39,622 nucleotides of DNA from Conidiobolus incongruus B7586 (lineage: Eukaryota), in the NCBI GenBank assembly GCA_000697335.1, contig JNEM01011395.1:1-39622 (forward strand), in the 5' to 3' direction. The first letter of the stretch is position 1. The number at the start of each line of letters is the position of its first letter. The translations under genes and the position numbers were made by a program. Positions 7,087-29,602 of this stretch are shown piece after piece. Below the pieces are notes generated by a model that had not been told where the DNA came from, searched no databases, and was given only the letters and a program-made list of their open reading frames with translations.

Positions 7087-7120
7087 TATTAGCTTGCAAA
7101 AGTAAGTCATAAAATTAAAA
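7087..7120 (+). repeat. left terminal inverted repeat of Tc1 element
   Basis: TATTAGCTTGCAAAAGTAAGTCATAAAATTAAAA; pairs with 8617-8650. Confidence 0.88.
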
Positions 7121-7315
7121 ATATAAATATTTCTATTAATATTTTAATTTATTCTAATTTAAATAAATTTATATTAAACTATGTTATTAATATATATTTT
7201 TTATTTATAATATAATATATAAAGTTAAATTTAATTAATTATTAATTGATATATTAAAACTAAAAGTATAGCTAAGATAAGTTATAAATTTGTAGATTTT
7301 AATATTGATAAAAAA

Positions 7316-8330: not shown

Positions 8331-8616
8331 TATAATATTAATTTTAAAATATTAGCTTAATAGTTTTATAATATATATAATATAATAAGAAAAAAAAGAT
8401 ATATATAAGTTTTGTTATTTATACCCTTTTAATATATAAACCTATAGATTTATAACTCACCTTGGTTAAATTTTAGGTTTTAATCTATTAACCAATAGTT
8501 AATAAAATATAATCAAATATAGTTAGTTATAATCAACTAATATAGGTAAATTATATATTTTAAATTAAATTTATTTAATTAAGAATTGTTTAAGATATAA
8601 GTAAATATATAAGTAA

Positions 8617-8650
8617 TTTTGATTTTATAACTTACTTTTGTGGGCTAGTA
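8617..8650 (-). repeat. right terminal inverted repeat of Tc1 element
   Basis: Reverse complement TACTAGCCCACAAAAGTAAGTTATAAAATCAAAA; six mismatches to the left TIR, all transitions. Confidence 0.88.
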
Positions 8651-10477
8651 TATATTTAAAAAATTAAAATTAAAAAATTTGATATTTTTTGGTTAAAAAA
8701 TAATATAACTAAAATAAATTTATATTTACTTTAAAAAGTTTTCTTAAATAAGAATTTTATTAATATAAAATTAATTTCAAAACCAAATATAAAAATTTAA
8801 TCCTTATATAAATAGCTTTAGTTTATTATATATCTAAATAATCTCTTGATATATTTATTTTAAATATTTTACAAAGATTTATATATATTGCAATCTTAAA
8901 TAATTATTAAAAAATTATTTTAATATAATAACTATATAAAAATGAATTATAATAGCATTTGTTTTTATTTAATTTAATTTATATAATATATGATAATTAA
9001 ATAATATCTATTTATTTTATGTTTTTAACTTAAATATTAATTTTTATATTTATTTTAGATATAATAATCTATAGTTAATTATTTAATTTATCAAATATTA
9101 TAATTTTTAATTATAAATATTTTCAACATTTTAAATTATTTTTAATATTGTCTCTATAAAATTACTCACTAAAAACTATTATTTAAAATAAGTTTGAGAA
9201 TTTTTAACTTAAAAAATATTTATCATATAATATTTTACATATGAATGTGAAAAATAATGTGAAATTTATTAAATATCAATTATTAATAATTTTACCAATT
9301 CTATTATATATTCATTCTGAATATTATATAAATCATTAACAGATATATTGATGGCTAAAGAAATATTAATCTATATATATAATGTTCATTTTATTATATA
9401 ATGGTGAAATTAGGTGAAAATTATTTTAAGAAGTGATGTTATTTATATTTCATAATATGAATGATATGATAATTCAATTAATTTTTAATCTATTAAGGAA
9501 TTTCCAAGTATTGACTAGTTTGTTATATTATTTATAGAGTTCACTGTTATTTTAGTGTTATCAAGAACATCTCAAATTTCAAAATAAAATATATTTAAAC
9601 AATTTTGCTTTTGACTAGCTTTGTATGAATCAATATCAAGAGTAATATTCAATACAAATGTTATGACTTTTACCACTAAATTGCTGAAATAAGATTAAGA
9701 TGAACATGAGAAAAACCATATGGTGAATAATGATAACCGCCTTAGTTTTCCATTAATACAAAAAGTGGTTGGATTTCGGATCAATATTCTGATGATAAAT
9801 TATTTAAACATGATGGATCAAATACTGTAACACATTCATTTAGGAATTATTTAAAAATCAGTAAAGCTTGATTATAAATCTTCAATTTAAAATATTATAA
9901 ATTTTTTATCTTGGTTAATATTAATTACAGAATTGAAATTGAATATAAATATTATACATAGTTAAGTCATATTACTTTGACTGTTGCAAAGATTGAATTT
10001 TACTTAGTTCGCTTCAAGTTATACGTTTTAATTAAAAATTTATAGATTGAAGTCTCATTACTTGTTTTATTAATACTCATTTGATTTTAATTAATATCCT
10101 TCAGTAATTAACTCTCCAGCCTAGTTAGTTCAAGTCAAAAATCCAGCTTTAACAATTAATCTATATTACAAATTTATTAATGTATTAGATTGATATTAAA
10201 ATGTCGATAAATATATTAATATTATGATATAACAATTAAATATCTCTTATTGTTGGTCAATCATTTATTTGATCATAATCAATTTCGCTGTAAACATAGC
10301 ATAGTATATTACCCTTTAAATTTTTATAATTGCTTTATTATCTTTTAATTTATTCAAATATTCTATTAATTGAATATTAGATTGAGAATATATGTGACTG
10401 TGCGCTGCAAAACCACTTTTATCAATTACTTCAACAGTAAATATTATAACGTTAGTGATACAAAAACAGAAGTTTAT

Positions 10478-11236
10478 CTAGTTAATAGAGCCGTTGAATT
10501 TTGTAAAAGTGATTTTTTCATGTTTAAGACACCAGTAATATTTGCTAGGATTGGTATTAGGGTTATCAGGATCTGGCATGGGTTTCACTCTGGAGTATCC
10601 AGCATCCGTGAGAACACGATGAACTGTAGATGAACCTACTTTCATTCCCTCTTCGGTAAGCTCTTTAGCAATATCTCTACACGACTTCTCCCTTCCATTA
10701 ACACCATTAACTTTGGCGATTATTGCATCCACAGTGGATTGTTTACGGGGCCTTCCAGATTTGGGACATTCTGCAAGGTGTTCATTTTTAATCTGAATTG
10801 GCAAAGAGCTAGGATTAAATCCACGTTTAACGGCCATGCTCCAGATAGAGCCCACAGTTCCTCGCGATACTCCGAGGTTTTTGGCGATTTGATTGTTGGA
10901 CATATCTGTGAACACCTTTAGTGCTATAATAGCACCCCTTGTCGCAGTATTAGTTAGGTTGGATACTTGTTTCTTTTCTTTGTCCCTGGGCTCACCCTGA
11001 GTAGTTGTAATTGAGTCGTTTTGCGCCGTATCAGCACCAGTATTGCTCTCTACTTGATTTTCTCGTGTATCGCCCTGGGAGACAGTATCTAAGTTATTTT
11101 GATTTGAATTTTCGTTCGAATTAGATTCCTGTTGAATAGTGCTAGACTGATTCTTGGAGGTATCATTTAAATCATTTGATTGAGTATTTTCTAAACTAGT
11201 AGTAATAGGAAAATTTTCTGGCTGATTAGAACTCAT
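10478..11236 (-). CDS. Tc1 transposase-derived HTH DNA-binding protein without DDE domain (array copy 1, intact, 252 aa)
   Basis: Low-complexity N/S/Q/T N-terminus, HTH1 (SNNQIAKNLGVSRGTVGSIW), KSGRPRK AT-hook-like linker, HTH2 (SCRDIAKEL..EGMKVGSSTVHRVLTDAGY), then YYWCLKH and a stop. Confidence 0.85.
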   Translation of the reverse strand: MSSNQPENFPITTSLENTQSNDLNDTSKNQSSTIQQESNSNENSNQNNLDTVSQGDTRENQVESNTGADTAQNDSITTTQGEPRDKEKKQVSNLTNTATRGAIIALKVFTDMSNNQIAKNLGVSRGTVGSIWSMAVKRGFNPSSLPIQIKNEHLAECPKSGRPRKQSTVDAIIAKVNGVNGREKSCRDIAKELTEEGMKVGSSTVHRVLTDAGYSRVKPMPDPDNPNTNPSKYYWCLKHEKITFTKFNGSIN

Positions 11237-11994
11237 TAAAAAAACTTATTTACAAAATTTATTTAGTAAAAATATAAGAATATTAATAATTTTAATTTTA
11301 AACAACTCAATTAAATAATTTAATTTAAATGCTGATCGACCTTTGTTATATACATTTTGTTATTTTAATAATTAATTATGGTATCAAATTCAAATTCAAA
11401 CTTGATCAAATTGTTGAATTTGTTTGCAGTTAACTAATTTGAATTTAAATTATTCACCTAAAAATATAATCAGATCAAGTTATCAAGTATATTACACATG
11501 TCGATATAAAAAAGATATTGCGATTAGTATAGCTCTAAATATAAGGTATTTGGTATAAGGTAGATTTGATGATAATATGATCATTGACATCAGGACAATT
11601 TAAAAATAGTCTTTATACAATCAGCTGATCATTTGATTATTTATGCAATTTTAAAATACAAAAATTATCTGCCAAAAATACCTGTTTTGTGTTTAATGTT
11701 CAGTTTATTAACTTGAGATCATAAATAAATTTTTAAAATTCATGATTTTATATTATTATCAGTTAATTTACTAATTTTTATGATTTAAATATATGATTAA
11801 ATATGTGAATTGATTAATTTATATGTTCTCTCAGTTTCCAATTGAGGAAATGAATATATTATGTAACGTAATCCAATATTAAATTGATTGATTTTTAATT
11901 TACAAGTATATGAGGTAGTGTATAAGACAACAAGATCCATTTCATTTCTAGTATTGTATCATTCAATACCCAATCAAAGTATAAAACAGAATAT

Positions 11995-12729
11995 TTAGTT
12001 TGGCTAGATATTGGATTTTATAAAAATGATTTTTTTCATTTTTAAGACACTAATAATATTTGTTAAGGTTGATATTATAACTGAATGGATTTTGATAGAT
12101 TGAACTCAGAAGTATCCAGCATCTGTAAGAGTACGATGAACTGTAGTTGAATCTACTTTGGTTGTCCCTTCATTAAGATCCTTCGCTATATCATTTACCA
12201 ATTTCTCTCTCCCATTGATACCATTAACCTTAGCAATGATTGTATCTCTTGCACTCTGCTTGCTCGGACTTCCATATTTGACAATATCTGAAGATGTTCA
12301 CTACGTATACAAAGAGGTTTTAGTTTAGGACCGAAACATTTCTAATTGCTAGATCATAGTTTTTACCTACAGTGGTTATACTAATTTGGAAATTGGACAT
12401 ATTCGTGCATACTTTCAATGTTAAAATAGGACCCTTAGTCGTAATATAAGTTAAGCGACTTCCTCGTTTCTTCTCTCCTTCTTGAATTGTAATCTGTGAA
12501 GTAGTCTCCTGATTGTTTTGCACTGTATTATTCACTGTACTGGAACAACTTAAGTTTCTCAAAATTGCCTCTGGGAGACAGAAATTGAAATGGTTTTTTA
12601 GTACTATCAACAGCATCAGGTTCTACTTCGTTTGCTGAAGCTTTATTTTGAGTGTTACCACTCAAATAGTTGTGAAATATTTTCAAATCTATTCGGAATA
12701 AGAAATCCTTCCCGTGGATTTTACATCAT
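11995..12729 (-). pseudogene. array copy 2, pseudogene
   Basis: Nucleotide-level similarity to copy 1 (AGTATCCAGCATCTGTAAGAGTACGATGAACTGTAG vs AGTATCCAGCATCCGTGAGAACACGATGAACTGTAG). TKGPILTLKVCTNMSNFQI is retained, YYW has become YY* (TGG->TAG), and there are frameshifts/a deletion. The 5' end is approximate. Confidence 0.85.
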
Positions 12730-14118
12730 TACAAATATGACTTAAACAAAAATATCAATTAAAACTAAATAATTTTAATTTCCAAGCTTGAATGCATATA
12801 ATTTTAAACTATTGATAATTTCAAATCCAATTATTGTATCAAATAGAAAATTAAACTATGTAAATTTAATTTTGATTTGCATTTACTATATGCACAAGTT
12901 ATAAAGGTAGATCAACTAAAAAAATTATATTTGTTAAATATATTTTATATTGAATTAATAAAGGTATAATGGAATAAATTCATTACCAACTATAAAATAA
13001 TCCTCTGTAAATTGAATAGTATCATGGTGTCTGATATCAGAACTAAATTGCATAATATATATCAATAAATCAGCTGATTAATTGTTGTTATATACATTTT
13101 CAAATTACAAAACCAAATTTTAAAGTCGCAACTATCACTTTGATTTTCAAATTTTTTAACTAGAGCTGAATTTTTAATTGGTTATAATTTAGGGTTTAAT
13201 ACATTGTTAGCAAACTATGTTTAAAAAATAGAGATTATGAACGTATTTGTAAATCATTTCAATTTTTACTCATTTAAACAGGTTCCATTTGATAAATAAA
13301 TAACCATTTTAAAAGAAAATTGTAAATATTATATGTTCATTGAACAATATATATTCGTTTTAATTAATAAATTTCAATTCAGATTTTGTGTACCATTTCA
13401 TTATATAGTCCTGTTAAATTATTTATATCGATATTGCATTATTAAGTATTAGGACTATATTAAATAATATAAAATTGAATTTTATGAAATGTATAATTAA
13501 GAAAATCTGCAAAAATATAAAATATCTTTTAATTTAAAAAAATTTTAAAATTATTAGGATTTTTACTAAATATATTTAATATGAATTCTTATAATAATAT
13601 TGTCAATATTTGAGGCTTAGAAATTTCCTTAGTTATAATGAAAAATATTAATCTTAAAATTTAAATATTTTGGTAAATTAAATCACTTTATCAAAATAAA
13701 CTGTGTATAAAATACATTTTTTGTTATATTACAATTAAATATTATTAAAATCTTGAGCTGAAAATATGTTGCATAAAATGATGTAACTATGAACCTGATT
13801 GAAAAAGTGATAAATATTTCGGATAAAATCATAAGTGTTTGCTTACTTTGTGTTTAATATGAAAAGTTACATACTTGTAAGTTTTTGTTAATTTTTTATA
13901 AATCATTTCAATATATAAATAAAGGATTGTATTCGTCAATCGATATAATCTCTCAGCTTCGATTTGAGAATATCATTATAATTTTGCCTATGATAAACAT
14001 ATATTATATTCACTGATTTTTTTTGATTGAAAGTATATGTGATTATTGGCAGTGAACAACATGTATTCATTTCTTCCATTGTATTTTTAATATTTCATTA
14101 CAGGACAAAATAGAATTT

Positions 14119-14938
14119 TTTATAACCACCAATTAAATTTTGAGAGTCATTTTTATGCTCAAGACAGCAATGATATTATTTTGGATTGGAAATTGAGTTG
14201 TAAAGATTGGGAATAGGTTTCGCATTAAGGTATCAAATATCAACAAGAGTACGATACACTGTAGAAAGACCGACTTTCATCACATTCTCACTAGGTTTCT
14301 TAAAAATCTCCCTCACAACTTCTCTCTACAGTTAACTTTTGCAATAATTGCATCTTGCTCTTGGGTTGCTTGGTTTTTGATATTTCAAATCTTTCAGGTG
14401 TTTATTAAGCGTAAAAATTGGATTCAATTTTGTATTCAACTCGTTTTTAATAGCCAGACTAAGTTTGAGAGACTCTGTTCATACACACCAAGTTTTTGTT
14501 CAGTTTTTATATTTTATATGTTTGTGTATGCTTTCAATACTAAAATAGTATCCCTTCACCGCCATATTATTTAACAATTTCCTTGTTCCTTTTCTTTTTC
14601 CCTATCTGTGCTCTTGAAGATATTATTTTGATTCTTTTTTAATAATTTTTTACTCTATTGAATTCGAATTGACTTGTTCTATACCATGAACCACATTAAA
14701 TACCACCAAATTTTTGAATCTCATTCCGAATCATACTTCTCAAATCATTTTATTCTCTATTACCGAACACTTTGGATAGTATTGTGTCAGTTTGGATTCT
14801 GTCCTTGGGTATAAGGTTGATGCTGGTTTCCATTGTCTCATGTTTAGTATAGTGATAAATGTTATTAATATAAATTATGTCCAATGACATAACTTTATAA
14901 TTCGAAGCTAATTTATATTCATGTTGGTTAAAATTCAT
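14119..14938 (-). pseudogene. array copy 3, pseudogene
   Basis: MKVGLSTVYRTLVDI*YLNAKPIPN matches copy 1 MKVGSSTVHRVLTDAGYSRVKPMPD, and CLEHK is present at the 3' end. Probable start MNFNQHE at 14938 (cf. MSSNQPE). Multiple disruptions. Confidence 0.8.
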
Positions 14939-15702
14939 TTAAAGTGATATATTTATAATTGCAAAGTTTATAGTTCACCATTGAATTAATTTTTTTTTCA
15001 AAAAATTCAATAATCAAAATCTATGATATTAAAAAAATTAATTGTTTTCAAAAATAAAAGCCTATTGAGATGAAATGATTATAGAAAATTTTGATAGGTT
15101 AAAATATGATTAATTTTTTCCTTATCAATTTTATACTCTAAATTGTTTTAAATAATAATTTCTCAGTAATATCATGCTAATAAATTTGGGATAATATTAT
15201 ACAGATTGGAAATTTGAAAATTATTCAGTTTGTGACTGTGATTCAATTTTTGGATTTCATTGTGAAAATTTGTAAGTCATAACCCTGAATCTAATTAAAT
15301 TATTTTCTCATAATAAAATTAATAATCAATATGAATATACTTTTGAAAAATTGATACTCTTTAATTTATAGCTACGAACTATTTGGCTGAATTGTATTGT
15401 ATCATGCATTATTATTTATTATTATAATATATACTGTCTTAAAGATATTATTCAAATTATCGTTAAATTTTAAAATATCTAATCATAATCAAATAAAGGC
15501 TAAATATCGTAAAAGATGATTATTCACTATTAAGGATTTAAATTAATTAATTAATTGTATAATTGCATAATTGAATTGCTTATCGTTGTAGAGGTATCAA
15601 ATTAAATTTTTGAATTTTACATCTTGCTCTAAATATTAAAGCTCTCAAGATGATTAAAGTTTTTTTCATGAACACCGCATTTAAATATGTCAAAAGAGAG
15701 TT

Positions 15703-16564
15703 TTAATTAATGAGAGATCAACTATACTGGTTATAATTAGTAATTTATTCCGCTAGTGAATTGATCAGCTGATTCCTAGAATATCCAGCTTCTGTAAGGA
15801 TCCTGAAAACCTTAAAGGTATTAGTTCAAATTCTCTGATCCTTCAATCCCCTACAAATCTCATCCAGTAACTTGTTCCTTCAATTCTCATTCTGTACAAT
15901 TGCAATATCAGAGTTCCTAATCAGATTATTTGGCACCGAACACTTATAAAATAGTACGCCTCTGAATACTTGGTACGCAGCTGAATTTGTGTAGCTTTGG
16001 GATCGAAGCCTCGTTTCAGAGCTTGATTGTAAAGAACAAACGACAACACTTTCCACACTGGTCCTTCGTGAAGTTTCACTAATTGACCTTGCAAAGAGCT
16101 GTAAACTGCAATAAATGCTCGTGTTAATGTGTCCGTAGTTTTGCCTTCTCACTCTTCTCCAGGCTGAGCTATTCCTTGATTGGGGTCGTTCAATTTGCTT
16201 TGGTCAATATTGTCACCAGTATTGGAGATTTCATTTGTTTGGTTGGTAGCAACTTCATCCCGAATGTTATTGCCAGAGTTAACTTTGAACTGTTTACAGG
16301 AAAAAGACGTACTTTTGACGTCCAATTTCAAATAAGATCTAATTGTTCAAATTGTTATACTTTGTGCTGTTAGTATTAACTGTGTAGATATTAGATTAGA
16401 TATCAATTAGTAGAACGCTAGTTAAATTTCTATTCTCGAAGTTATTAGCAGCATTGGAGGTTACTATTTTGGTTTAATAACTATTCTGGGTAATAGTATT
16501 AAAATTGGTTTTCTATTTTATCAAAATAATCATAAACTAAATTTTCAAGTTGATTAGAACTCAT
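15703..16564 (-). pseudogene. array copy 4, pseudogene
   Basis: Starts MSSNQLEN (copy 1 MSSNQPEN). Contains DTLTRAFIA, SISETSRRTSV (HTH1) and VFRILTEAGYSR (HTH2), and ends YS*SL. Frameshifts split it into the short ORFs in the track. Confidence 0.78.
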
Positions 16565-17199
16565 GAAAACATAATCTTATCTAATTTTGATAATTTTGAA
16601 TATTCATAATAATATTTTAAGATTAAATTGAATATTATTAATTCTATAATTCATTAGAGTTAAACTGATTTAGAATTCCAAATTTAATTTTGATATTCGG
16701 ATTGAGAATGTATTCAAAAAATATCAATATTCTAATGATTATGCCAATTATAGTATTTATGTAGTTGAAATAGTTGCCAAAATAATTTTTGAGCATTATT
16801 AGGTGCTTTAGTTGATAATATACCCAATCTTTTATATTTTTACCAAGGTGTAGATATCAGTGTATATTTTGAAAACTTCTGTATTAATTTAATGAATCTT
16901 TAAATATGCATAATATTCAATAATATATAATGTATAAAAAGAGTTTAAATATCTTAAATCCCAAAGTGTTTTTTTTCAGAATTTAATGTTATTTTCAGTC
17001 TACACTATTTTGAAAATATTTTGTCGAAAAATTTGAGACCAAATTGAAAATATCTTAGGAAATAATATGCAATTGTATTAAATTAGGAATAAGTGTGACT
17101 GTTAATTTCAGGTCTACCTCAATTTGATCCCTTAGGATATTTTATTACACTTCATTTCAAGCCAATTAGAATATTCTTAGTTAAAGTGATTATTTTCAA

Positions 17200-17900
17200 C
17201 TATGTTACAGTAGTATACTTATCCTTTAGTGACCAGTAGTATTAGTGAGGATTGCTATACTGGTCTCAAGGTATATTAATTAATTTTGCCTCGGAATATC
17301 GCGCACTTATCTAGATTGAACTGATTTGATACTGTACTCAACATACTGGAGTTGGAGCTTGTTAGATATTTCACTAAGCGCCATTTTCCTACTATTCAAT
17401 TTCTTGAAAGTTGCTATGAAGGCTTTTTTTACATGAGAATTATGCAACAGAGGCTTTATTAGATGATTTGGGTTGAGAAGTTCCTTACGCAGATGGAATA
17501 AAACAACGTTGTGATTGAAATCGCGTTTTAGAGCTAAAGCACAAATTGAACGGACTATAAATCTAAAGATGCCCACCTTTCTTGAAATTTCGAAATTGGT
17601 CATAATTTAGAGTCCTTTATATGCAACAATTGTTGCTCATGTCGTTATGTCTGTATGAAATCCTTTCCTTTTACTCTCTTATCTGGGCTGGGACCATCCA
17701 AAATTTGTGGGATTTATATTGTCGTGTGGGATATCAAGAGAGTTGGACATTCTAATTGCTCGATCATTGTGCATTTCATCTTGAGTTTTATTACTGGAAT
17801 TTTCAGGTTCTATATTTATCAAAGAATGTACTTTCCTTATGATATTGCGAATATTGCTATATAGGATATTAGACAAACTGACATGCTTTCCACCTGTATA
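17200..17900 (-). pseudogene. array copy 5, pseudogene
   Basis: TDITT*ATIVAYKGL*IMTNFEISRKVGIFRFIVRSICALALKRDFN ... YYWSLK, with in-frame stops. The 5' end is approximate. Confidence 0.8.
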
Positions 17901-18698
17901 TCATCGGATTGTATTTCATTGAATTGATCCTAACTGTTTGAGCTACTATTAAAATTGATAACTTCCAATATATCAAATATTCTAAAAATAAGAACATTGG
18001 ACTTATTCAAACTAATTGTTGTTTCTGGTAACAATAATATTTGTATCCAGTAATATTTTTAATTTTAATATTAACAAAATGATATTAATTCAAATTTCGA
18101 AATCAGAGTGAATTAGCTTATTAAATTAGAATATTATAAATTCAGAGGATTTAAACTCTTTTATTGTATCATTTTAAGATAAGACATTCAATATCAAATG
18201 TATAAAATACAGAAATATCAAATTGAATATATTTCCATATTAATAGTATTGTAAATCTTCAATTTATCAGCAATTTACATGTAAAAATCATTCCAATCCA
18301 ATTATAGTGATTTTTTTAGCACAATAGTCTACTGAAATTAAAATGCTACATATAAGAAATTTTATTTATAAACTATAAATAAATTGTAAACATCTGCCTT
18401 TGGTAAAAAATTGATATTTTACCATAGTTTATATATGGTTTTATATTAATAATCTCAAAATCAAATAAAATACATTGAATAGTTTGTTGTCTATTTGGAT
18501 AGATAACTGTGTAGTTTTTTAATTCAATCAAATATTTAATTGTAAGGTACTAATAATTACCTGATATTTATTAGTCATTTTAAAATTAAAATATTTAATA
18601 TTACTGGGGCTGAGCACTGCAAAGGGTCCTAAAAATTACACCCATATCACATTAGAATCCCTAGTAATTATGTCTCTCCAATGAACCAACAAAACTAA

Positions 18699-19418
18699 TT
18701 ATTTCTTTGTATTGGGATTAACAGTACGCGACCAATGATATTTATATTTAAACAAAGACCCAATTTGCATAGGTGAATTGACCCAATTGTAGCCCGCATC
18801 ATTCATAATCCTGGTGACTTTATCCCTACCGATCTTAAGTCCCTGTGCTCTCAACTCTTTGACGATCGCATCAGATCCCTTCTCAATGCCGGTAGGTTCG
18901 CTAGTGACCTTGTCGAGCACTGCAGTCCTGACGATATCTGGAATATCTTTGGGACCTCCACCATTTTTAGGATTGTTCCTCGAATAGTCGAACAGTTCGT
19001 TGGTGATGGGGTGTTCTGCAAATGGACTGAAGCCCTTCTGTAATGCTTTGGCGTAAATGTTATCGACTGTACTCCTGTCGATTCGTAAGCATTTAGCGAC
19101 GTCGGACGACGGCATATCGCAAAAGCCTTTTAGAGCTACGATGGCCCCTTTCATCGAGATGTCCACTACAGTTCTTGTGGTGGCTTTGGGTTTTTTGTTA
19201 GCGTTGTTGTTGGCATTGTTGGTACTGATATTTGTATTATTGTTATTGTTGGGTGTATTATTAGTGTTAGCACCTTCCGAAGTACTAACTATCGCAACAT
19301 CTTGGGTATCTTCGTGAGGTCTTTTATTACTTTGGCTAGAAGCTTGCAAAGTATTGACTAAAACAACGTTATCAATTTCAGAAGTTCCACCATTGGAATT
19401 TTCTTCATTTAAACTCAT
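18699..19418 (-). CDS. Tc1 transposase-derived HTH DNA-binding protein without DDE domain (array copy 6, intact, 239 aa)
   Basis: Asn-rich N-terminus, DISMKGAIVALKGF, HTH1 (SSDVAKCLRIDRSTVDNIY), ALQKGF, HTH2 (IVKELRAQGLKIGRDKVTRIMNDAGY), KYHWS. The GRP linker is replaced by GGGPK. Confidence 0.85.
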   Translation of the reverse strand: MSLNEENSNGGTSEIDNVVLVNTLQASSQSNKRPHEDTQDVAIVSTSEGANTNNTPNNNNNTNISTNNANNNANKKPKATTRTVVDISMKGAIVALKGFCDMPSSDVAKCLRIDRSTVDNIYAKALQKGFSPFAEHPITNELFDYSRNNPKNGGGPKDIPDIVRTAVLDKVTSEPTGIEKGSDAIVKELRAQGLKIGRDKVTRIMNDAGYNWVNSPMQIGSLFKYKYHWSRTVNPNTKK

Positions 19419-19957
19419 CCCAATACCTTAATAAAATAACTTAATTATTAACAATAATTAATATTATTTAGTTGATATTAAAAAATTATTAAATAATGGA
19501 TTTTTAATTCAAAGTTAGGTTTGATTCAAATGGGCAAGTTGTAAATTCATTTTATAATTTAATGTTTATTAATATAAAATTATGGTATTTTTGGGGACTG
19601 ATTCAATTTCCTCAAATTAATCTATAATTTTAATTAATTTTTTAAATTTTAAAATTATTTAGTATTGCATATTTGAATGATCATTACACTTTCAATTACG
19701 CGGATATTGATTAATTAAAAAACTCAGTCTTTTTAGTACAAATTTGAATATATAATACAATAATTATATTTATTTATTTTGTTTTGAAATATAATAACTA
19801 TTGAATTTGAACAGATATCTAGATTCCAATTTAAATTTAATTTTGTTCAATTTTGTATCAATTTGCAACTACTTATTTGCTAAACTTGAACTATTCATTG
19901 TGTAAAAGTAAGGGTTTTCCATGATAGAATATGTTTGAAATAGATTCAATTAATCCT

Positions 19958-20557
19958 TTAATTCTTACGACACCAATAAAATCGATTAGTATACACTGAT
20001 CCATTGACAACTGGAGCTTTCGTCCAACAGTAGCCAGCTTCCTTTAATACTTGACTCACAGTCTCTCTACTCACTTTAAAGCCTTGAGGCTCCAACTCCT
20101 GGGCGATTACTTTACATCCCTTCTCCAATCCACTGGGATCACTATGAATCTTAGCCAAAATCGCCTCCTTAATATTATCAGCCGTCCTTGGTCTTCCCGA
20201 CTTGGGCGTCTTTTCAAAATACTCATCCTTCAAAATTGGATGTGTCGCGAACTGGTCGTACCCCCTCTCAACTGCTTTAGCAATAATTCTCTCTATGGTG
20301 CGACGGTGAACTTGCATTTTGGAGGAGATTTCCGATGTCTTCATCCCCGCTACCGTCTTCAGAGCTACTATAGCAGCTTTTGTGGCAATGTTCATCTGAC
20401 TTTGAGATTGGGTTTTACTTTTTTTTCCTGATTTTATACCCTCATCCTGATGAGTTGGGTTGTCGTCGTCCGAATTACTTAAAATAACGTTGTGACTATT
20501 TTCTTCTTCCAGTTCTCTCTTGCGTATTATTTCTTCTGAAGATTCTGTTGAATTCAT
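19958..20557 (-). CDS. Tc1 transposase-derived HTH DNA-binding protein without DDE domain (array copy 7, intact, 199 aa)
   Basis: First ATG at 20557 (MNSTESSEE). NIATKAAIVALKT, HTH1 (TSEISSKMQVHRRTIERII), AVERGY, PKSGRPR, HTH2 (GCKVIAQELEPQGFKVSRETVSQVLKEAGY), FYWCRKN. Confidence 0.87.
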   Translation of the reverse strand: MNSTESSEEIIRKRELEEENSHNVILSNSDDDNPTHQDEGIKSGKKSKTQSQSQMNIATKAAIVALKTVAGMKTSEISSKMQVHRRTIERIIAKAVERGYDQFATHPILKDEYFEKTPKSGRPRTADNIKEAILAKIHSDPSGLEKGCKVIAQELEPQGFKVSRETVSQVLKEAGYCWTKAPVVNGSVYTNRFYWCRKN

Positions 20558-20619
20558 TGTACTGACAATTCTGTGAATATATTTATTATAATAATAGTAT
20601 ATAACAAAAATTAAATGAC

Positions 20620-20646
20620 AATAATAATAATAATAATAATAATAAT
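20620..20646. repeat. (AAT)9 microsatellite upstream of copy 7
   Basis: Direct reading; it explains the poly-Tyr in the ORF-track extension. Confidence 0.9.
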
Positions 20647-21199
20647 CAATATAACACAATATAGTTAATTTTCGCAACAAACTATATTCAGAGTCCAACT
20701 AATTTTAAATTAATTACAATTTTGTAATTTAATTTATGGTTTTGGATTTTAAAGTTTGGTTTGGCTTTTGACGTCAATTTAATGTCACAATTCAATAATT
20801 TTCAGATCATCTATTTTCATTAATATACCATTTTATTTTGATCTAGCATATGTTAGTGTATAGAATTCAACGTCACAAAACATAAATAATTTTTTATATA
20901 TCTAAAATTAATATGTTCTTAGCATATTCCATTGACATACTAAACCAATATACTATTTAGATATAAAACATGATTACCTTGATAATTTCAATACTAAATT
21001 AGTTATTTAATAATTTCAAATAAATTTCAATTCACAATTAATATTATTTTATATTTTTATCTAATACTTTTTTAAATCAATTAAATTATTCAAAGATTAG
21101 AATCACTTTTATATATATTGATTGATAGTCGAAGTTTTATTAATTTAATATGTTATATGAATTATATATATGAAAACAGGAAATAAATATGTATATTAA

Positions 21200-22260
21200 A
21201 ATATAGTCGAGCTTAACCGGGACAGCCATAATCCCAATCACATCTATTTAATTGAAAGGATCTATTTGAAAAATTCCTAAGCCCTACCAATACCATTCTC
21301 AATTATCAAGCCGCAGCAACACCCTGAAATCTTGGTACTCTCACCAAATATAACAAGAATTTACCACGATTTAATTTGTGTTATGGTAGGTTCACTATAT
21401 CTTCGGTGGCTTAGACATAGTATATATCCATCCAATTTGATTCTATCCTTCGAATCAATAATGCACGATCTTCTTCCTTCTATATATTCTTGGGATATTT
21501 TAAATATCCTAAACTAAAATCCATGATAGATAAATATAAAATACCTGAATAAATATGCTAAGGAAATGAGTCAACTTAACCAGAGTCCTAATCTCTTCAA
21601 CCAATTGCATCCATATTTCGAAAAGCATTGGTGACTGGCAATATTCGAACCATCCTTACCTGACACTGTTTTCATCGCCTTATAAAACCAAAGTCCTTAA
21701 TCCTCCGCTTCACAATTAGAAACCTCAGCTAGAGGCTCCCAAAAGCTTTACAAATTATTAATTAGACAGCTATAAATAGCAGAAGCAAGATTGGTCTGGT
21801 ACCAGACTAGGAGGATGCCATTTGAGTTGAATAAATTTTTCAAAATTTAACTCAATGAAGGAAACTCAATAATAAGCATATAAAGTATGTCAAAGTAGTA
21901 TTAAATACTGATACATAGTTCAATGAAATATTAACTTCCGAAAAATTTAATCCACATAAGCTTCTCCCTAGCTCGCCACAATCATAATCGCAATAGTACA
22001 AATGTTGTTAGGTCCATTCCGTTATGGTCAGGAATGTCTCGTATGTTACTTAGAACTCGCCATGCAACCTCCGCATTACATCTCTAAGCCCTAATATGAG
22101 GCTTGAGGACCTTCTACAAAATGGCGCCGAAGAAGCAGCTATGATACACGAGATGGCTGCATGTACATAGCCATAGCGGCAGGTTTCGTGTGAGTTGGGT
22201 TGAATTTATGGAAGAGAAAAGTAATGGCTATGACGAGATTTGAGGTATTTAAATTAGTGA
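21200..22260. pseudogene. unidentified decayed coding-like segment interrupting the array
   Basis: About 1 kb with GC and CpG content like the genes but stops in all frames. No array motifs recognised. Confidence 0.35.
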
Positions 22261-22996
22261 GTTCACAAACCCTAGTATTTTGGCTGGATGGAGAGGTATA
22301 AATCAATTCAATTTGAAATGATGAAATTTATGATCTGATCTAATTCTTTTCAAATTTGAATTAATCAATCAAATATTAAAATTATAGAAAAGTTAAATTG
22401 TTGGAATTAATGGAGTCACTAATATATCACCAAATAGTGATTATTAGATTTTCAATTGAAATTTCAGTCATATTTACAATGTGATTACAAATGATTAGTA
22501 TGTTATAAGCTTTCTATCCAATATTGACACTAGTTTATTTGAAATAACCAACCAGTTTCTTTAAATCTTTATCTCAAAATACGATTTTGAAAATTTTGGG
22601 AAATTAAACCAATCAAATTTGATAATATTAAAAATAAAAACAATTGAGTTTAATATGATATTATTAATTGATATACTAGATAGTTAAAGTTAGAATATTT
22701 TTTCGATTAATAAGAGTTTAATTTGAATTTATTGTATTTCAGTATTAGAATAAATATAATAAATTGACCAGTTTCGTAATTTAATTTTTTTTCTCATTTA
22801 AATTTGCTTTATTTTTCATTGTTGAATAAATTTCATTATTAAAAGCATATAAAACAGATTATATAATATCTATAATTGATCTAAATAAAATTTCAACTAT
22901 TCACAATTCTTTAACTTGTGTTCAATAATTCTAAATTCGAAATTCAAATTTTGGAAATATATATTTGAATCCACAATAAAATTTAATAAATTCTAT

Positions 22997-23575
22997 TTAA
23001 TTTTTTATGTTTAACCACTATTTAAATTGATCTTTAAAAGCTTTGCCATCAGGCACCTGTGAGTCGGCCCAAGAATACCTATCATCCATAAGTATACCTC
23101 GCAAAATGTGATAAAAAATTTTATACCATCAAGTCCCAATTCCATTGCTAGTACTTTACTTCCCTTCTTCAAAATCTCAGTATCTCAGTAAACCATGTCC
23201 AAAATGTCTTCCTTAACCCCGTCTCTAGATCCCGGTGTTCCATGAATTGATGCTCTTTCGAAGAATTCCTGCCTCAAATCCGTTGAATTGGATTCGAGAT
23301 TATACCCACGTTCCTGAGCTCTCTTCAGTGCTCTCTTAATTTTTGTGCAAATATTAAACCATTGGTTAAATTTTCCAGGTTTCATAGCTCTAATAGTGCT
23401 TAGACCGAAAATTGCAGATTTTCAACAAGCATATATTGTGAAACCTAGTTGGATTTTTGGTTCTTTGGAAATTCTTTGTCTGAAGCACTGTTAGATTCAT
23501 TGATTTTCGAGCCATAAGAAAATGGTCATTTTGTGGAAGTTTTTTCAAATTTTTAAAATTCATTATACTAGTCAA
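22997..23575 (-). pseudogene. array copy 8, pseudogene
   Basis: ALKRAQERGYNLES..LRQEFFE...GVKEDILDMVY*DTEILKKGSKVLAMELGLDGIK, then YSWADSQVPDGKAFKDQF after a frameshift. Closest in style to copy 7. Confidence 0.82.
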
Positions 23576-24819
23576 TTATTTTATAATTATTTAATGCTTT
23601 GAATGAATAATTATACTAAAATACTATATGATCAAGAATATCAATAAAAAGCAATAATACTTTCATTATATAAATAAAATTGATCAAATAAGTACTTGGA
23701 TTGAATTTCAATTTATACATTCTCTAATAGGTTGGGATTAATGGGGTATTTATGACTAGTTAATTATATTTGAATAAGAGAAATCCTTAAGGGTATTTAT
23801 TTCTATTGATGTTTGAAAATAAAAACAAATTAGTATATATTGGATAACTATGTGTTATAATTAAATATGTAACTAAAATTTCAAATACAATTCTTGTTTT
23901 AAAACATTATTTATAATAATATATATCTACATACTATAGATAATGTGAAACCATGCATAATTTAGATTTTAATGACGAATTTATAAAGAATAATTATTAC
24001 TTTTTTATAGATTTTATTGATTTTATGACAACTTTCAATAATTTGCTTCATCATCCCCAAACTGATTTAACAACTATACAATATTATCATGTTTGTATAG
24101 AGTTGTGGTTCTACTGATTGCTAATATGGTATTGTTAATAGGGAGGGAACTGTTTGCTTGTGGTTTGTTTAGTAGTTTGGGCTAAGTCGTTTTATTAGGG
24201 TTCGTCAAGGGTTTAATGAGCTTCACATAAGACCGCAAGTGATATTGAAAATGTATTCCGACAATGCTTCTTTTGTAGTCGGTCATAGATAGTGTAAAGG
24301 AGTGTATTAGGTCTTCAGAAAAATAAGACCTTGAAGTGTTGTTACGGGTATTTCGAATTATCTCTCCATAAGGTATTAGATTGTGGGATGAAGTTGGTCG
24401 AGCGGGTTACATTTTAACAATCACAGAGTAATTTGCTTGATAAATAGATGTTTACTATTAAGTTTTGAATTTATTATAAAAATTTGATGTTATTTACATT
24501 CAACTACAAATGTAGTTATTTGATAATTTAAAACATAAAAATATTTTAAAGGTATGAATCAAATTTCAATCTTAATTGATAGTAGAAATATTGTGCAGAT
24601 GAATCATTATACAAATAATTCTGTGACCTATAGGTTTAATTGCTTAAATAAATATAATTACCAATTTGAAATATTTATCAAACCTTTCACATGAAATAAA
24701 AGATATCATTATAATATTCAACTCTTTCATAAACTTGTAAGGAATATATTATAATATAATAAATTTTTCATAAAAATTAATGTTCTTCGATTATGATTAA
24801 TTATTGAAGATATTAACAT

Positions 24820-25340
24820 TATCTCGACTTTTGCTAATGCAATACCATGTAATTCATAGCATCATGATCCTTATTATGGGAAAATTTATCCCTATGTCTC
24901 ACTATCAAACATCTGAACTGATTTCAAGAGTATCGGGCATTCATAATCATCAGGCGTAAATGAGTTTTGATGCTTTCATCCCTCTGAACTCAATTTCTTT
25001 TGCAATTGCTAGACATCCTCTGTCCAGCATGGAAGAATCTTCATTTATTGTCTATAGTCTGTTGCTTGGTTTGGACTGGCATCCTAGGTTCCTTAATGAT
25101 AAAGATCCTGTCAAGGTATTCTTCGAGCTCAACCGATTGGAATATGGATTGTATCCACTTCCTTGAATTTTCGATAAGATTCTTTTGATCATTCGTGACG
25201 ATATTATGGATTATTTGGCGATTAGATACGATTTCATATAGGCTATAGTACTAAGTGTGGATACTGCAACTTTTTAGCAGTTTTCGAAGCAGTTATGCTT
25301 ATTTTTTTATTGTTGGAACTTTCGTATTCTGAAGAATGGT
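24820..25340 (-). pseudogene. array copy 9, pseudogene
   Basis: QGSGYNPYS...DSSMLDRGCLAIAKEIEFRGMK matches DPSGLEKGCKVIAQELEPQGFK of copy 7. Stops and frameshifts present. Confidence 0.75.
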
Positions 25341-25769
25341 GAGCGTAAAAAATCGGATTAGTAGAACAATGGTCGTTATGTAGGTAGTTTTTTTAAGTTT
25401 TAAGAATTCACTATAATTATATAATACTATAGGGTTATTTCTAATTATTCAAAAAAAAATAAGTCATTTTAATTAAAAATTAAAAATTAATAATAATAAA
25501 TTTTTTCAAATTTTCATTTTAAAATTTAAAACCGTCCTTTAAATTGAGAATAAATTTATGTATTTGTGACTGTTATCCAAAATGGGTGATATGTGAGAAT
25601 ATTTTACTTATTCCCAAGGTTCATTTTTTTATGTCTATTATAGAATATATTATTGAGAGTGGCAGGTACTATTTATCAAACTGTAGTTATCAATTCAAGT
25701 GTAATAGTTAGTATATTATATTACTTATAAATCTCTATAATATTGTAATACTACTTCAATCTATTACAG

Positions 25770-26337
25770 GCTTTATAGGTTCAAGAACTCATTCTTACGA
25801 CAGCATACAATCTGTAGATTGGAGATTGGAAGGGAATCATGAATTAATGAATCCATTCCCTCGAAGAATTCTAGCTATTGCATTCCTAGACACCTTAATA
25901 TTTTCACTTTCCAACTCTTAAACCAATATTCTAGCACTCTTCACTTTATTGTGATCATTAGTCACCTTGGAAACAACTGCTTCTCTTGTATGATCCCTGG
26001 CTTCCTTGCATTTCCAAAGCTTTGATTGCTTATCAAAATGTTCCATAGTCAAATTGAAGGATGCTGAGTCGGGATCAAATTCGTGTTCCTTATCAGTGCT
26101 GCAAACGAGATCGATCCTCTTCCTGGAAATACTGAAATGTATCACATTTTCAAAGTCTTCATACCTAAAATGGTCTTGAGTCCCAGTATATCTGCCATCC
26201 TTGAAGTGTTCAGAGATTGAGATATTATATCGCGTCCTTTTAAGTTGATTCCACTCTTATTGGAAGAATTCAATGAGCATTCTAATATATTATTTAGACT
26301 CACTTAATTTGCTCTGACTATTATCATTTTAACTCAT
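25770..26337 (-). pseudogene. array copy 10, pseudogene
   Basis: FDPDSASFNLTMEHFDK...REAVVSKVTND...ILV*ELESENIKVSRNAIARILRGNGF, with terminal CRKN as in copy 7. The start ATG AGT is followed by a stop. Confidence 0.78.
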
Positions 26338-27274
26338 TAATTGACAAAATATTGAAATTTATAAAATTCAGCTTAAAAAATTGATGACAATGATTGATAA
26401 AAATTAGAAAAATACCTTGATTTCAACCGTAGGACTAAATCATATAAATTAATTACCCTATCCCAAGTTTAAAATTTAGAGTTAGTTATTTTTTATCAAT
26501 ATGGAATTCAGATTATAATATAAATTGTACCTTGAAAAACATTATTTTAATTAAAACCTGAAACTGTTAATATCATTATCAAATAAAAAATCGAAAAATA
26601 TATACTATGTTCACTTACAAGTCTTAATTTTTTTAATTCCCCAATTTTTATACAGTGATTTTATTGTTTTTTTGAAACTATTCTACACAAATTATCAACT
26701 ATTTTATAAATTCATAGAGATTATATCACTTTAATTTAAAATATAGCAATCAATATGATATTTTTACAAGATGGCATTTGGGTGATTTTATTGCAGTTTG
26801 TGAATATTACACTGATAATATTCAATTATTGGGTTAATTCATTCTCATATACTTATTAATGAATAAGATAATGAACTTTAATGGATTGAATTAGTTTTAA
26901 TTAATTCATCTAATTCAAATTTGATTTCATAAATTTCAAAATATATTATGGATATTGGGAGTTGAAAAGTGTAGTAAGAATATTATTCAATCAATATAAT
27001 AATAACTTTAATTAAATCTTACAACTTATTAATTTTGATCACTTTTATACATATTTGAAATAAACTTTGAAAAATTATTTCAATTTTTTTACATTGTTGA
27101 GGATATTAAAGATTGTTTATAAAAATGATATTTGATATATATAATGGTATCAGTTCAACATATTAATACCATATCAGTTTTGATTAACATTTAATAGATC
27201 AGATTTCCTACTGTGTACAATCCTTCAAAATTGGCTAATTTGAATTAATTCTTAAATGAATATTGATAATATAT

Positions 27275-27887
27275 TTAAATAGTATTAGAATCACGAATGC
27301 AACAATGATATCGATTTTTAAAGTCAATACCAATCTGGTATATCCCTTTCATCTAAAAGTAACCAGCGCCTTGAAAAACCTCATTCATGTACTTTATGTT
27401 GGTTTCAATATCTTGTGACTCCAATTCCTTAGCAATCATTAGGTATCCTCTATTAAGCCAATCGGGATCACTAAGAACCTTCACCAAAATCTCTTCCCTT
27501 GCATTAGCTTAACACTGTTTCTTGCAGGGATGTTCGATCCTCGCAGTATTGTCGATTTGCTCGTCTAAAAGGATGGAAAATTCTCACCAAGAGATTGAAT
27601 CCGCGCTCTACAGGTGTCTTGTACACTTCGCCCGTTGCACCCTCGGAGAAATTGGCTCTACGGGCGATTTCAGCATTAATTAAATTGATGAATCCCTTTA
27701 GGGTGATAAGTTGAGCCGTCGCAGCAATATTTAATTCGCGCCTAGATTTCGCTTTTTTGGCGTCTGGATATACCTCCTTCTGCTAAAGCTCTGAAATTTC
27801 TGCAACTGATAAATTGTTGGCATCGCAATGTAAAAAGGTTCCAAGACTTCTCTGAGATGGACTCGTGTGAATGTTTTGAGTATTCAT
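27275..27887 (-). pseudogene. array copy 11, pseudogene (absent from ORF track)
   Basis: LNIAATAQLITLKGFINLINAEIARRANFSEGATGEVYKTPVERGFN ... REEILVKVLSDPDWLNRGYLMIAKELESQDI...GAGYF*MKGIYQIGIDFKNRYHCC. Contains in-frame stops and a frameshift. Confidence 0.85.
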
Positions 27888-28059
27888 GTTGAATTAAATC
27901 ATTATTATGTAAAGATATGGATAATAGTAATTAAAATGAAAAAATATATATGGAATAGTTTTTATAATTGTAATTCTTAATTCCAAGCCAATTTAAATAT
28001 ATTTAAACTGTTAGATTACTTAATTTAAAATGCCTCCGCAAAGTATTTTACTTCATTAT

Positions 28060-28440
28060 ATTCAAAGTATTCAGTGTACAGCAAATCTTTGCAACTGGAT
28101 ATTTTACAACAAAAATTATCATCTACTACCTCTGGTTCATCTTCTGCATCACCGTTTTCATCCACATAAGCTATTTTATTTAAGATTCTAACAGTATCTT
28201 GGCTGTATGTACCTTTAATTACAATAGTAATGATTCGATAGTAAGAATTAAAACACCATGACTTTAGAATATGAAAGATCTTGAGCCAAATTTTTTAACA
28301 ATTGGTCAAAACTCTAATTGTATAAATTCTATATCTAAAGCTTCATTGATTTACTCAGGATCCACTTTGATCTTTGGTAGTGTTCTGAATAGATAACGGC
28401 CTATCATATTTTTTTTTAATTTTTTTAAGGTATTGAGATG
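28060..28440 (-). pseudogene. possible highly decayed array copy 12
   Basis: Weak SQDTVRILNKIAY resembling the HTH2 recognition helix (SRETVSQVLKEAGY). Position and strand fit the array. Confidence 0.3.
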
Positions 28441-29219: not shown

Positions 29220-29602
29220 TACTAAAAGGCTAGTTCTCTAAATTCTTATATATATTTCTATATAATTCAATTAATTATAAAATATATGATTAATTTATAC
29301 TTTTATAGCAAAATTAATTATATAAATAGTATTGAATAATTTAATAAACTAGGTTTTTCTTTTTTCTCTCAATTCTTACTATTTATTGTCTTTTATATTA
29401 TCTCTTAAAATTGAAACTATATTCTGTTAATATTATAATATATTGATATTACCTAATATAAATCTTAATATATTAGTGACTTATTTTAGTTTAAAGCTTA
29501 ATCACACTTTTTTTACACCTTTATATTATATTGTTATATTCTATGCTATATTGTTTTATATTAAGTTTTTCTCTACACTATATTAGTTTAACCACCACTA
29601 TA
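29220..29602 (-). repeat. ~385 bp dispersed repeat, putative solo LTR (copy B, inverted relative to 293-689)
   Basis: Reverse complement aligns to 293-689, with differences dominated by C/T and G/A. Confidence 0.7.

What the first reader, a model, noticed from the sequence alone, without database searches (positions are those of the whole stretch)
10478..28440. Tandem birth-and-death array of ~12 domesticated, catalytic-domain-less Tc1 DNA-binding genes
Seen: 11 clear plus 1 doubtful same-strand paralogs over 18 kb, of which 3 are intact (10478, 18699, 19958). All share a low-complexity N-terminus + HTH1 + (SGRP) + HTH2 + Y[YH]W end, and I saw no DDE sequence or TIRs around any of them. Established: the Tc1/mariner bipartite HTH binds TIRs, and transposases normally disperse rather than form head-to-tail arrays. 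Inference: this is a host gene family of transposase-derived sequence-specific DNA-binding proteins diversifying rapidly, functionally reminiscent of KRAB-ZNF clusters. They could act as TIR-binding repressors or as co-opted transcription factors. I do not know a described equivalent.
Basis: partly seen in the sequence, partly recalled or inferred. Interest (0 to 1): 0.9.

Follow-up and report, generated by a model that had tools for sequence, protein, structure and literature searches.

The report
Tamed transposon DNA-binding gene array
A fungus close to Conidiobolus carries eleven head-to-tail copies (three intact, eight broken) of a gene made from only the DNA-gripping half of a jumping-gene enzyme; one copy has a counterpart in Conidiobolus coronatus, so these are old host genes that likely regulate other genes or possibly restrain transposons.

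Summary
Largely confirmed. There are eleven same-strand paralogs at 10478-27890: three intact (252, 239, 199 aa) and eight with 2-8 lesions each. The doubtful twelfth is not above chance. A further, probably broken copy lies on the opposite strand at about 33700-34322.

They derive from an ascomycete-type DD34E Tc1 transposase and stop before its first catalytic aspartate. No catalytic remnant or convincing terminal inverted repeat was found.

New evidence for domestication: copy 18699 has a catalytic-domain-less ortholog in Conidiobolus coronatus (KXN68094, 58% core identity). The family forms one clade apart from transposases (99/97), and its duplications predate that species split (AU p=0.0004). 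dN/dS is about 0.35 for copy 10478. The copies keep CpG, whereas a transposon fossil in the same window has none.

Best reading: an old host family of two-HTH DNA-binding proteins with a new disordered N-terminus and, in one subfamily, a new predicted beta-hairpin, turning over by tandem birth and death. They are more likely transcription factors than TIR repressors. Expression, targets, synteny and genome-wide copy number are untested. Fast adaptive change is not shown. Precedents exist (Drosophila CG4570; tandem P sequences of D. guanche), so this is a new variant, not a new category.

The parts
10478..11236 (-). c1, intact gene (252 aa). The most transposase-like copy: keeps GRPR, GREKSC and the linker up to just before the catalytic VIWSDE
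12000..12745 (-). c2, pseudogene of the c1 subfamily (core 12029-12466; 2 stops, 3 frameshifts); outer limits approximate
14125..14835 (-). c3, pseudogene of the c1 subfamily (core 14143-14580; 3 stops, 5 frameshifts); limits approximate
15690..16565 (-). c4, pseudogene (core 15721-16136; 3 stops, 3 frameshifts); limits approximate
17190..18000 (-). c5, pseudogene (core 17209-17654; 4 stops, 1 frameshift); limits approximate
18699..19418 (-). c6, intact gene (239 aa); ortholog of C. coronatus KXN68094 / CONCODRAFT_79918; GRPR lost; predicted C-terminal beta-hairpin
19958..20557 (-). c7, intact gene (199 aa); passes the Pfam HTH_Tnp_Tc3_2, HTH_32 and HTH_23 cut-offs
23000..23530 (-). c8, pseudogene (core 23000-23421; 2 stops, 1 frameshift); groups with c7 in the quick tree
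24825..25385 (-). c9, pseudogene (aligned core 24965-25273; 1 stop, 2 frameshifts in that part)
25790..26340 (-). c10, pseudogene (core 25846-26225; 1 stop, 1 frameshift)
27278..27890 (-). c11, pseudogene (core 27278-27749; 2 stops, 1 frameshift); last supported copy of the array
Core open for 148 codons (33876-34319), but no in-frame ATG before helix 1 and two in-frame stops upstream: likely a young pseudogene, or a 126-aa form from ATG 33942
10393..10401 (-). ACAGTCACA, recurring spacer motif (also 15231-15239, 17094-17102, 25565-25573); contains the HomolD box CAGTCACA; role unknown

Best explanation
These are host genes, born once from the DNA-binding half of a Tc1 transposase and multiplied by tandem duplication, whose three intact members likely act as sequence-specific nuclear regulators, most likely transcription factors. 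Step 1 (shown by homology and tree): an ascomycete-type DD34E Tc1 gene lost its catalytic domain and, as far as can be detected, its inverted repeats. Step 2 (shown in the sequence): it gained a 54-105-residue polar, low-complexity N-terminus ending in a basic cluster; in the c6/c7/c13 branch the transposase linker became a new motif, predicted to be a beta-hairpin. Step 3 (shown): unequal-crossover-type duplication made the array before the split from C. coronatus; most copies later died, and three stayed open under purifying selection. Step 4 (inferred): the two helix-turn-helix domains read DNA as the Tc3 and Pax paired domains do, the basic cluster carries the protein into the nucleus, and the disordered N-terminus recruits co-regulators. 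Step 5 (inferred): the paralogs differ in their recognition helices and so would bind different sites. c6 keeps a non-transposase HTH2 recognition helix nearly unchanged across species, which points to a stable host target. c1 keeps transposase-like residues and is the best candidate for binding transposon ends.
For: Ortholog: P0007 = C. coronatus KXN68094, 272 aa, with no catalytic domain and the same end; 85 of 147 core residues identical against 22 of 76 in the N-terminus. A second, metagenomic version (P0005) matches P0007 at 148 of 150 core residues but 82 of 104 N-terminal ones, with 45 gap columns. Tree: 8 family rows form one side against 30 transposase relatives at 99/97, c6 with C. 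coronatus at 100/99. A window-only clade is rejected, p-AU 0.0004. Selection: dN/dS 0.35 (c1-c2) and 0.34 (c1-c3), below all 600 neutral simulations (minimum 0.39); the chance of an intact ORF staying open at 0.2 substitutions per site is 0.5% or less. End branches of intact c1 (0.14) and c7 (0.10) are shorter than those of their pseudogene sisters (0.43-1.39). Tandem origin: spacers c1-c2 and c2-c3 align at 67% over 235 nt, E 5e-11, and the 3' flanks align. Not treated as a transposon: CpG observed/expected is 0.47-0.97 in the 12 copies and 0.00 in the Tc1-sized fossil. Fold: two three-helix domains plus a hairpin at block-mean pLDDT 93-97. Pax5, Pax6 and Tc3 are among the top six Foldseek rows, E 0.015-0.035. 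The hairpin motif is in c6, c7, c13, P0005 and P0007 and in 0 of 150 relatives.
Against: No expression data. Only one other named species shows the gene, and only for c6; c1, c7 and c13 have no ortholog among the best 150 of 548 hits. Lineage-specific synonymous versus non-synonymous counts for c1 against c2+c3 are not significant (Fisher p=0.10). The HTH1 recognition helix differs between c6 and its ortholog (DRSTVDN versus SQYAVEN), which is odd for a conserved two-part binding site. No Foldseek match reaches E 0.001, and c6 passes no Pfam cut-off. 8 of 11 copies are dead. Nothing here tests activation or DNA binding.
Confidence: 0.55

Rival explanations
1. Domesticated transposon repressors. 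The proteins would occupy Tc1 inverted repeats or poison transposase dimers, or recruit silencing to them as fission-yeast CENP-B proteins are recalled to do. Copies would be born and die as Tc1 families come and go.
For: c1 keeps the GRPR hook and a transposase-like HTH2 helix, 35% identical to full transposase P0019 over 155 aa. High pseudogene turnover fits tracking of changing targets. The window holds decayed transposon DNA. One C. coronatus relative, C. incongruus, is described as TE-rich (PMC5751038, passages).
Against: No transposase nests inside the family clade among 63 relatives, though only one Conidiobolus proteome is known to be sampled. c6 and its ortholog have lost GRPR and share a conserved helix unlike the transposase one. 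No positive selection was seen. The fossil element in the window gives at most a marginal score with this family's catalytic profile (40 versus shuffled maximum 35).
Confidence: 0.27
2. One functional gene (c6) with hitch-hikers. c1 and c7 would be redundant duplicates on their way to loss, so the array itself would carry no repertoire function.
For: Only c6 has an ortholog in the searched collections. c13 shows that a copy can keep an open core while having lost its start. No expression data exist for c1 or c7.
Against: c1 and c7 are only 34-38% identical to c6 and to each other, yet open from ATG to stop. Their branches are short beside their dead sisters. dN/dS is about 0.35 for c1.
Confidence: 0.12
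3. A nest of decayed or non-autonomous Tc1 elements, or first exons spliced to a distant catalytic exon, with no host function.
For: Short DNA-binding-only fragments of this Tc1 family are common in the protein library: most of the 150 listed hits are under 200 aa. Genome-wide copy number could not be checked.
Against: The ortholog has the same truncation and the same new C-terminal motif. No TIR and no DDE remnant. 5 of 10 internal spacers, including those after c6 (698 nt) and c7 (539 nt), are shorter than the 768 nt the catalytic region needs. The longest open stretch downstream of the four open copies is 37-58 codons at 17-23% GC. CpG is retained.
Confidence: 0.06

Closest known systems
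Drosophila CG4570 and cag, DNA-binding-module domestications of Tc1/mariner (PMC13548663; abstract, sections 3, 7, 20 and passages read)
   Same: Only the N-terminal HTH module of a Tc1/mariner transposase is kept (CG4570 is 225 aa); no TIRs; purifying selection; own clade apart from transposases.
   Different: Those are low-copy genes with shown expression and synteny; the word 'tandem' does not occur in that paper's main text. Here there is an 11-copy array, mostly dead, in an entomophthoralean fungus, from a separate Tc1 lineage.
Pax paired domain (structures 1k78, 6pax, 1pdn) and the Tc3 bipartite DNA-binding domain (1u78)
   Same: Two three-helix HTH domains joined by a GRPR-type linker. 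These structures are among the best Foldseek rows; the paired domain is described as Tc1/mariner-derived (PMC13548663, section 3).
   Different: No Pfam PAX match; Foldseek E-values are only 0.015-0.16; independent origin; a longer linker and a predicted C-terminal hairpin.
Tandem P-element-derived neogenes of Drosophila guanche / obscura group (Miller et al. 1992: title seen in the references of PMC4107273; details recalled, paper not read)
   Same: A tandem cluster of immobile, truncated transposase genes; recalled as lacking terminal repeats and encoding repressor-like proteins.
   Different: A different superfamily (P element, THAP domain); recalled as keeping most of the transposase and as closely similar copies, not 28-38% identical paralogs.
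Fungal domesticated transposases: K. lactis alpha3 (MULE) and Kat1 (hAT) (PMC13469147, passages); S. pombe CENP-B homologs from pogo (PMC5391189, listing only; details recalled)
   Same: Host genes from DNA transposases in fungi.
   Different: Other superfamilies; they keep the catalytic fold; no such tandem array is recalled.
Ascomycete-type DD34E Tc1 transposases (P0006, P0019; Penicillium members named)
   Same: Source family: 35-39% identity over the DNA-binding region.
   Different: They start at HTH1, carry the KPTRKPG linker and a catalytic region of about 256 residues.
KRAB zinc-finger clusters (recalled)
   Same: Clustered paralogs, birth and death, varied DNA-contact residues.
   Different: No conserved effector domain, no repeat-based code, few live members, and no shown transposon targets or positive selection.

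Membership tests
Domesticated transposase gene (five criteria listed in PMC13548663) | Homology to a known transposase | tested here: met
   c7 passes Pfam HTH_Tnp_Tc3_2 (36.9 bits, cut-off 31.5); c1 versus P0019 E 2e-26
Domesticated transposase gene | No TIRs or target-site duplications | tested here: met
   IR scores 30-46 versus 159 for the fossil control; 2 of 12 beat all 40 shuffles with A/T-rich gapped matches only. Very short or very old TIRs could be missed.
Domesticated transposase gene | Low copy number, no dispersed expansion | not testable with these tools
   No genome held. In the window there are 12 copies, none near-identical (closest pair 75% over 238 nt).
Domesticated transposase gene | Intact ORF under purifying selection | tested here: met
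   3 intact ORFs; dN/dS about 0.35 for c1 pairs, below 600 of 600 neutral simulations; protein-level constraint for c6. The lineage-specific test was not significant (p=0.10).
Domesticated transposase gene | Intact ortholog in another species | tested here: met
   c6 = C. coronatus KXN68094; none found for c1, c7 or c13
Domesticated transposase gene | Conserved microsynteny | tested here: inconclusive
   DNA around P0005/P0007 could not be fetched. The DIS3 search gave an unnamed 88% cluster on a 3.6-kb contig.
Domesticated transposase gene | Own clade apart from active transposases | tested here: met
   99/97 support, careful tree of 38 rows; weaker (80) in two quick trees
Domesticated transposase gene | Expression | not testable with these tools
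   No RNA holder was listed; this is no evidence either way
Autonomous Tc1 (DD34E) element | DDE catalytic domain | tested here: not met
Non-autonomous Tc1 derivative | TIRs with TA duplications and near-identical dispersed copies | tested here: not met
   No TIRs; open copies 28-38% identical; dispersed copies outside the window untested
Pax / paired-box transcription factors | Pfam PAX paired domain | tested here: not met
   No PF00292 hit at E up to 1; fold resemblance only
KRAB-ZNF-like anti-transposon cluster | Binding to transposon sequences and a silencing effector domain | not testable with these tools
   Needs binding and reporter assays; no known effector domain found
KRAB-ZNF-like anti-transposon cluster | Positive selection at DNA-contact residues | tested here: inconclusive
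   Recognition helices differ among paralogs, but only c1/c2/c3 are close enough for dN/dS, which shows purifying selection

The most novel reading that the evidence does not exclude
An early-diverging fungus took up an ascomycete-type Tc1 element and turned its DNA-binding half into an expandable repertoire of transposon-recognising repressors. Copies are born and discarded as Tc1 families invade, and one member (c6) has graduated to a conserved host regulator: a small fungal counterpart of KRAB zinc-finger clusters, built from the transposon's own parts.
Probability: 0.2. Interest if true: 0.85.

Novelty: new variant of a known kind. Interest (0 to 1): 0.57.

Why it matters
Domestication of Tc1 DNA-binding modules is known from animals (Pax, CG4570), mostly as low-copy genes. 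I found no paper on such genes in Entomophthorales, nor on this gene: no paper in the library holds its identifiers, and searches listed none. The array shows several stages in one locus: a transposase-like copy (c1), remodelled copies (c7, c13), a conserved ortholog-bearing copy (c6) and eight dead ones. It is a tractable case for asking how a transposase becomes a transcription factor family, and whether such arrays serve transposon defence. It would also add a regulator family that Pfam cut-offs miss (c6 and its ortholog pass none) in a poorly studied fungal group.

Tried and rejected
- Whole genome: none held, so copy number, dispersed copies and a cognate Tc1 family could not be searched.
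- Sequencing runs: no RNA holder was listed; no conclusion on expression, and no reads were laid.
- Word-indexed homolog search with c7 alone found nothing. The six window proteins looked up are not in the collection by exact sequence.
- Locus searches for DNA around relatives found nothing usable. The one locus (47% over 38 residues, a Myxococcales MAG) was set aside as likely chance.
- Synteny by matching contig length through DIS3 was inconclusive.
- Blocks 21200-22250, 24050-24400, 28050-28440 and 9400-10000 were tested as further copies on both strands: none clearly above shuffles (28-41 versus shuffled maxima 29-42); no informative Pfam hit in the first three.
- A weak + strand match to the catalytic start at 24251-24319 (E 0.14) was not supported by the profile searches.
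- ACAGTCACA as a TIR end with a TA duplication: the two bases before CAGT are CA, CA, AA, AA, never TA. The true TIR of this family could not be obtained.
- PDB sequence search: best E 0.026. Rfam: only tRNA. The bacterial promoter scan is not applicable.
- Earlier scan notes held nothing on this genome or sequence; the four word matches are unrelated bacterial cases.
- Supplements of PMC11105155 (3 files held) do not contain the ortholog's identifiers; other supplements were not seen.


Full report
SETTING. The window is A+T-rich fungal DNA with a spliced SRA-domain gene, tRNA-Glu and DIS3. DIS3 is 88% identical to an unnamed cluster and 58-63% to Entomophthora, Massospora and Neoconidiobolus. 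The best named relative of the array genes is from Conidiobolus coronatus (Entomophthorales). I infer a Conidiobolus-like species other than that strain. No genome is held.

OBSERVATION. Three minus-strand ORFs are intact: c1 10478-11236, c6 18699-19418 and c7 19958-20557. A frameshift-aware alignment of 22 region/strand pairs found eight broken copies scoring 116-226, against at most 54 for shuffles (4 per region), with 2-8 stops and frameshifts each. The doubtful twelfth copy scores 40 against 34 and is not supported. A further copy, c13, lies on the + strand at 33876-34319; its core is open but it has no in-frame ATG before helix 1 and two stops upstream. The lesions are unlikely to be assembly errors, since a 704-codon DIS3 frame and the three intact genes are clean (inference).

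ORIGIN. c7 passes three Pfam HTH cut-offs, including HTH_Tnp_Tc3_2; c1 and c6 score below cut-off. Profile searches returned full transposases (P0006, P0019) with DD34E spacing (counted by hand on P0006) and 548 relatives at E up to 0.001, of which 150 were listed. Named ones are Penicillium, and the nearest Atlas clusters are mainly Ascomycota. c1 aligns with the transposase up to the residue before WSDET and then stops. A catalytic profile from 5 relatives finds nothing in six frames. In a frameshift-aware scan, 13 array-flank regions score 26-48 against shuffled maxima of 32-43, while simulated decayed domains score 170-319. Five of ten internal spacers are too short for the 768-nt catalytic region. 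Inverted-repeat scores around 12 copies are 30-46, against 159 for a real fossil element; c2 and c6 beat all 40 shuffles, but with A/T-rich gapped matches.

DOMESTICATION. The top hit (E 4e-41) is C. coronatus KXN68094, 272 aa: same low-complexity N-terminus, same end, no catalytic domain. It matches c6 at 85 of 147 core residues (HTH1 62%, linker 39%, HTH2 63%, tail 65%) and 22 of 76 N-terminal ones. A metagenomic version differs from it at 2 of 150 core residues but 22 of 104 N-terminal ones, plus 45 gap columns. In a careful tree of 38 rows (8 family rows; the first 30 of 63 long-enough relatives; six more decayed copies left out), the family is one side of a branch at 99/97 and c6 joins C. 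coronatus at 100/99 (bootstrap not fully settled). Quick trees give the family branch 80. Holding the four open window copies together without C. coronatus is rejected (p-AU 0.0004), so the duplications are older than that species split. dN/dS (Nei-Gojobori) is 0.35 for c1-c2, 0.34 for c1-c3 and 0.58 for c2-c3. Neutral simulations give means of 0.80-0.94 with a minimum of 0.39 in 600 draws. A polarised count is in the same direction but not significant (p=0.10). Intact ORFs would rarely stay open under drift: 5 in 1000 or fewer at 0.2 substitutions per site. The copies keep CpG (0.47-0.97 of expectation), while a 1.6-kb fossil has 0 where 9.3 are expected. C-to-T decay of repeats is plausible in this order (PMC11105155, passages), so the array appears to have escaped it (inference).

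TANDEM GROWTH. Neighbours are kin: c1 with c2 and c3 (100/97), and c7 with c8 and c9 (SH-aLRT 91, quick tree). The spacers c1-c2 and c2-c3 share 235 nt at 67%, and the 3' flanks align. Whole units were therefore duplicated with their flanks, not inserted one by one.

ANATOMY. The AlphaFold model of c6 (28-row alignment) has a disordered N-terminus (pLDDT about 50), helices 87-127, helices 161-207 and a hairpin at 210-231, the last three parts at block means of 93-97; c7 gives the same layout. Foldseek ranks Tc3 first for c7 (E 0.08), and Pax5, Pax6 and Tc3 within the top six for c6 (E 0.015-0.035); none is significant alone. The N-termini are 61-72% N/Q/S/T/D/E and end in a basic cluster. Among 150 relatives, 14 have 40 or more residues before the domain, and none exceeds 38% of these residues. 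The hairpin motif occurs in c6, c7, c13 and both C. coronatus-type proteins, in 0 of 150 relatives, and not in c1. The third helices of the HTH domains, which read bases in Tc3 and Pax (established knowledge, recalled), differ among paralogs. HTH2 reads SSTVHR in c1 (transposase-like), RETVSQ in c7, RDKVTR in c6 and RDRVTR in its ortholog. HTH1 differs even between c6 and its ortholog, and GRPR is lost in both.

MECHANISM. I put about 0.9 on a domesticated host family. Within that: transcription-factor family 0.55, transposon repressors 0.27, one useful gene with redundant passengers 0.12; a dead transposon nest gets 0.06. The lean to transcription factor rests on the conserved, non-transposase HTH2 helix of c6, the new disordered N-terminus and the lack of a cognate transposase in the clade. 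All three are indirect, and taxon sampling is thin. DNA binding, nuclear import, activation and expression are inferred, not shown.

KNOWN SYSTEMS. DNA-binding-only Tc1/mariner domestication is described in Drosophila (PMC13548663: abstract, sections 3, 7 and 20, passages). Tandem P-derived sequences in D. guanche are known (reference title in PMC4107273; details recalled). Yeast alpha3 and Kat1 are fungal cases from other superfamilies (PMC13469147, passages). PMC5751038 (passages) lists Tc1/mariner in C. coronatus, and its one 'domesticat' passage is general. Searches listed no paper on this gene or on such an array in fungi; the library lacks most subscription journals.

VERDICT. It is less exotic than claimed: an old, slowly turning-over array with three live genes and partial precedents. 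New variant of a known kind; interest 0.57.

Noticed in passing
window 7064-8668: Decayed transposon of Tc1 size: 229-nt inverted repeats (73%), 15% GC, no CpG. Minus-strand frames show relics resembling Tc1 catalytic motifs (judged by eye against recalled consensus; no Pfam hit). Probably not the array's family.
   Followed up: partly
window 383-686 and 29223-29527: Two inverted 305-nt copies (87% identical) of a CpG-free repeat, 28.5 kb apart, bracketing the array and the 185-aa gene. Most likely two insertions of a dispersed repeat; a large composite element is not excluded.
   Followed up: no
window 10393, 15231, 17094, 25565 (minus strand): ACAGTCACA occurs four times in array spacers (0.09 expected by shuffling; top 9-mer, p 1e-8 over 262,144 tests). 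It contains the fission-yeast HomolD core promoter box CAGTCACA (PMC5769750, listing only). A GTCACA also lies about 117 nt upstream of the 185-aa gene. It may be a promoter element or a binding site, and it survives beside dead copies.
   Followed up: partly
window 21200-22250 and 24050-24400: Two blocks of 36% GC with CpG retained inside the array that match neither the family nor Pfam; probably unrelated decayed coding sequence.
   Followed up: partly
window 2763-3320 (-): Intact 185-aa ORF with a hydrophobic, signal-peptide-like start (by eye) and no Pfam match, isolated among transposon fossils.
   Followed up: no
window 31588-32610 (+): Small spliced SAD/SRA-domain gene next to the array; SRA domains are recalled to bind methylated cytosine, which is of interest beside CpG-free repeats.
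   Followed up: no
protein P0050: 577-aa protein joining a Tc5-type HTH, a PB1 domain and this same Tc1 DNA-binding module: a possible independent host-transposase fusion in another organism.
   Followed up: partly
window about 20768-20775: TGACGTCA palindrome (CRE/ATF-type site, recalled) about 210 nt upstream of the c7 start codon.
   Followed up: no
proteins P0006-P0156: The source Tc1 family seems mainly ascomycete, so its presence in an entomophthoralean ancestor may reflect horizontal transfer; not tested.
   Followed up: no
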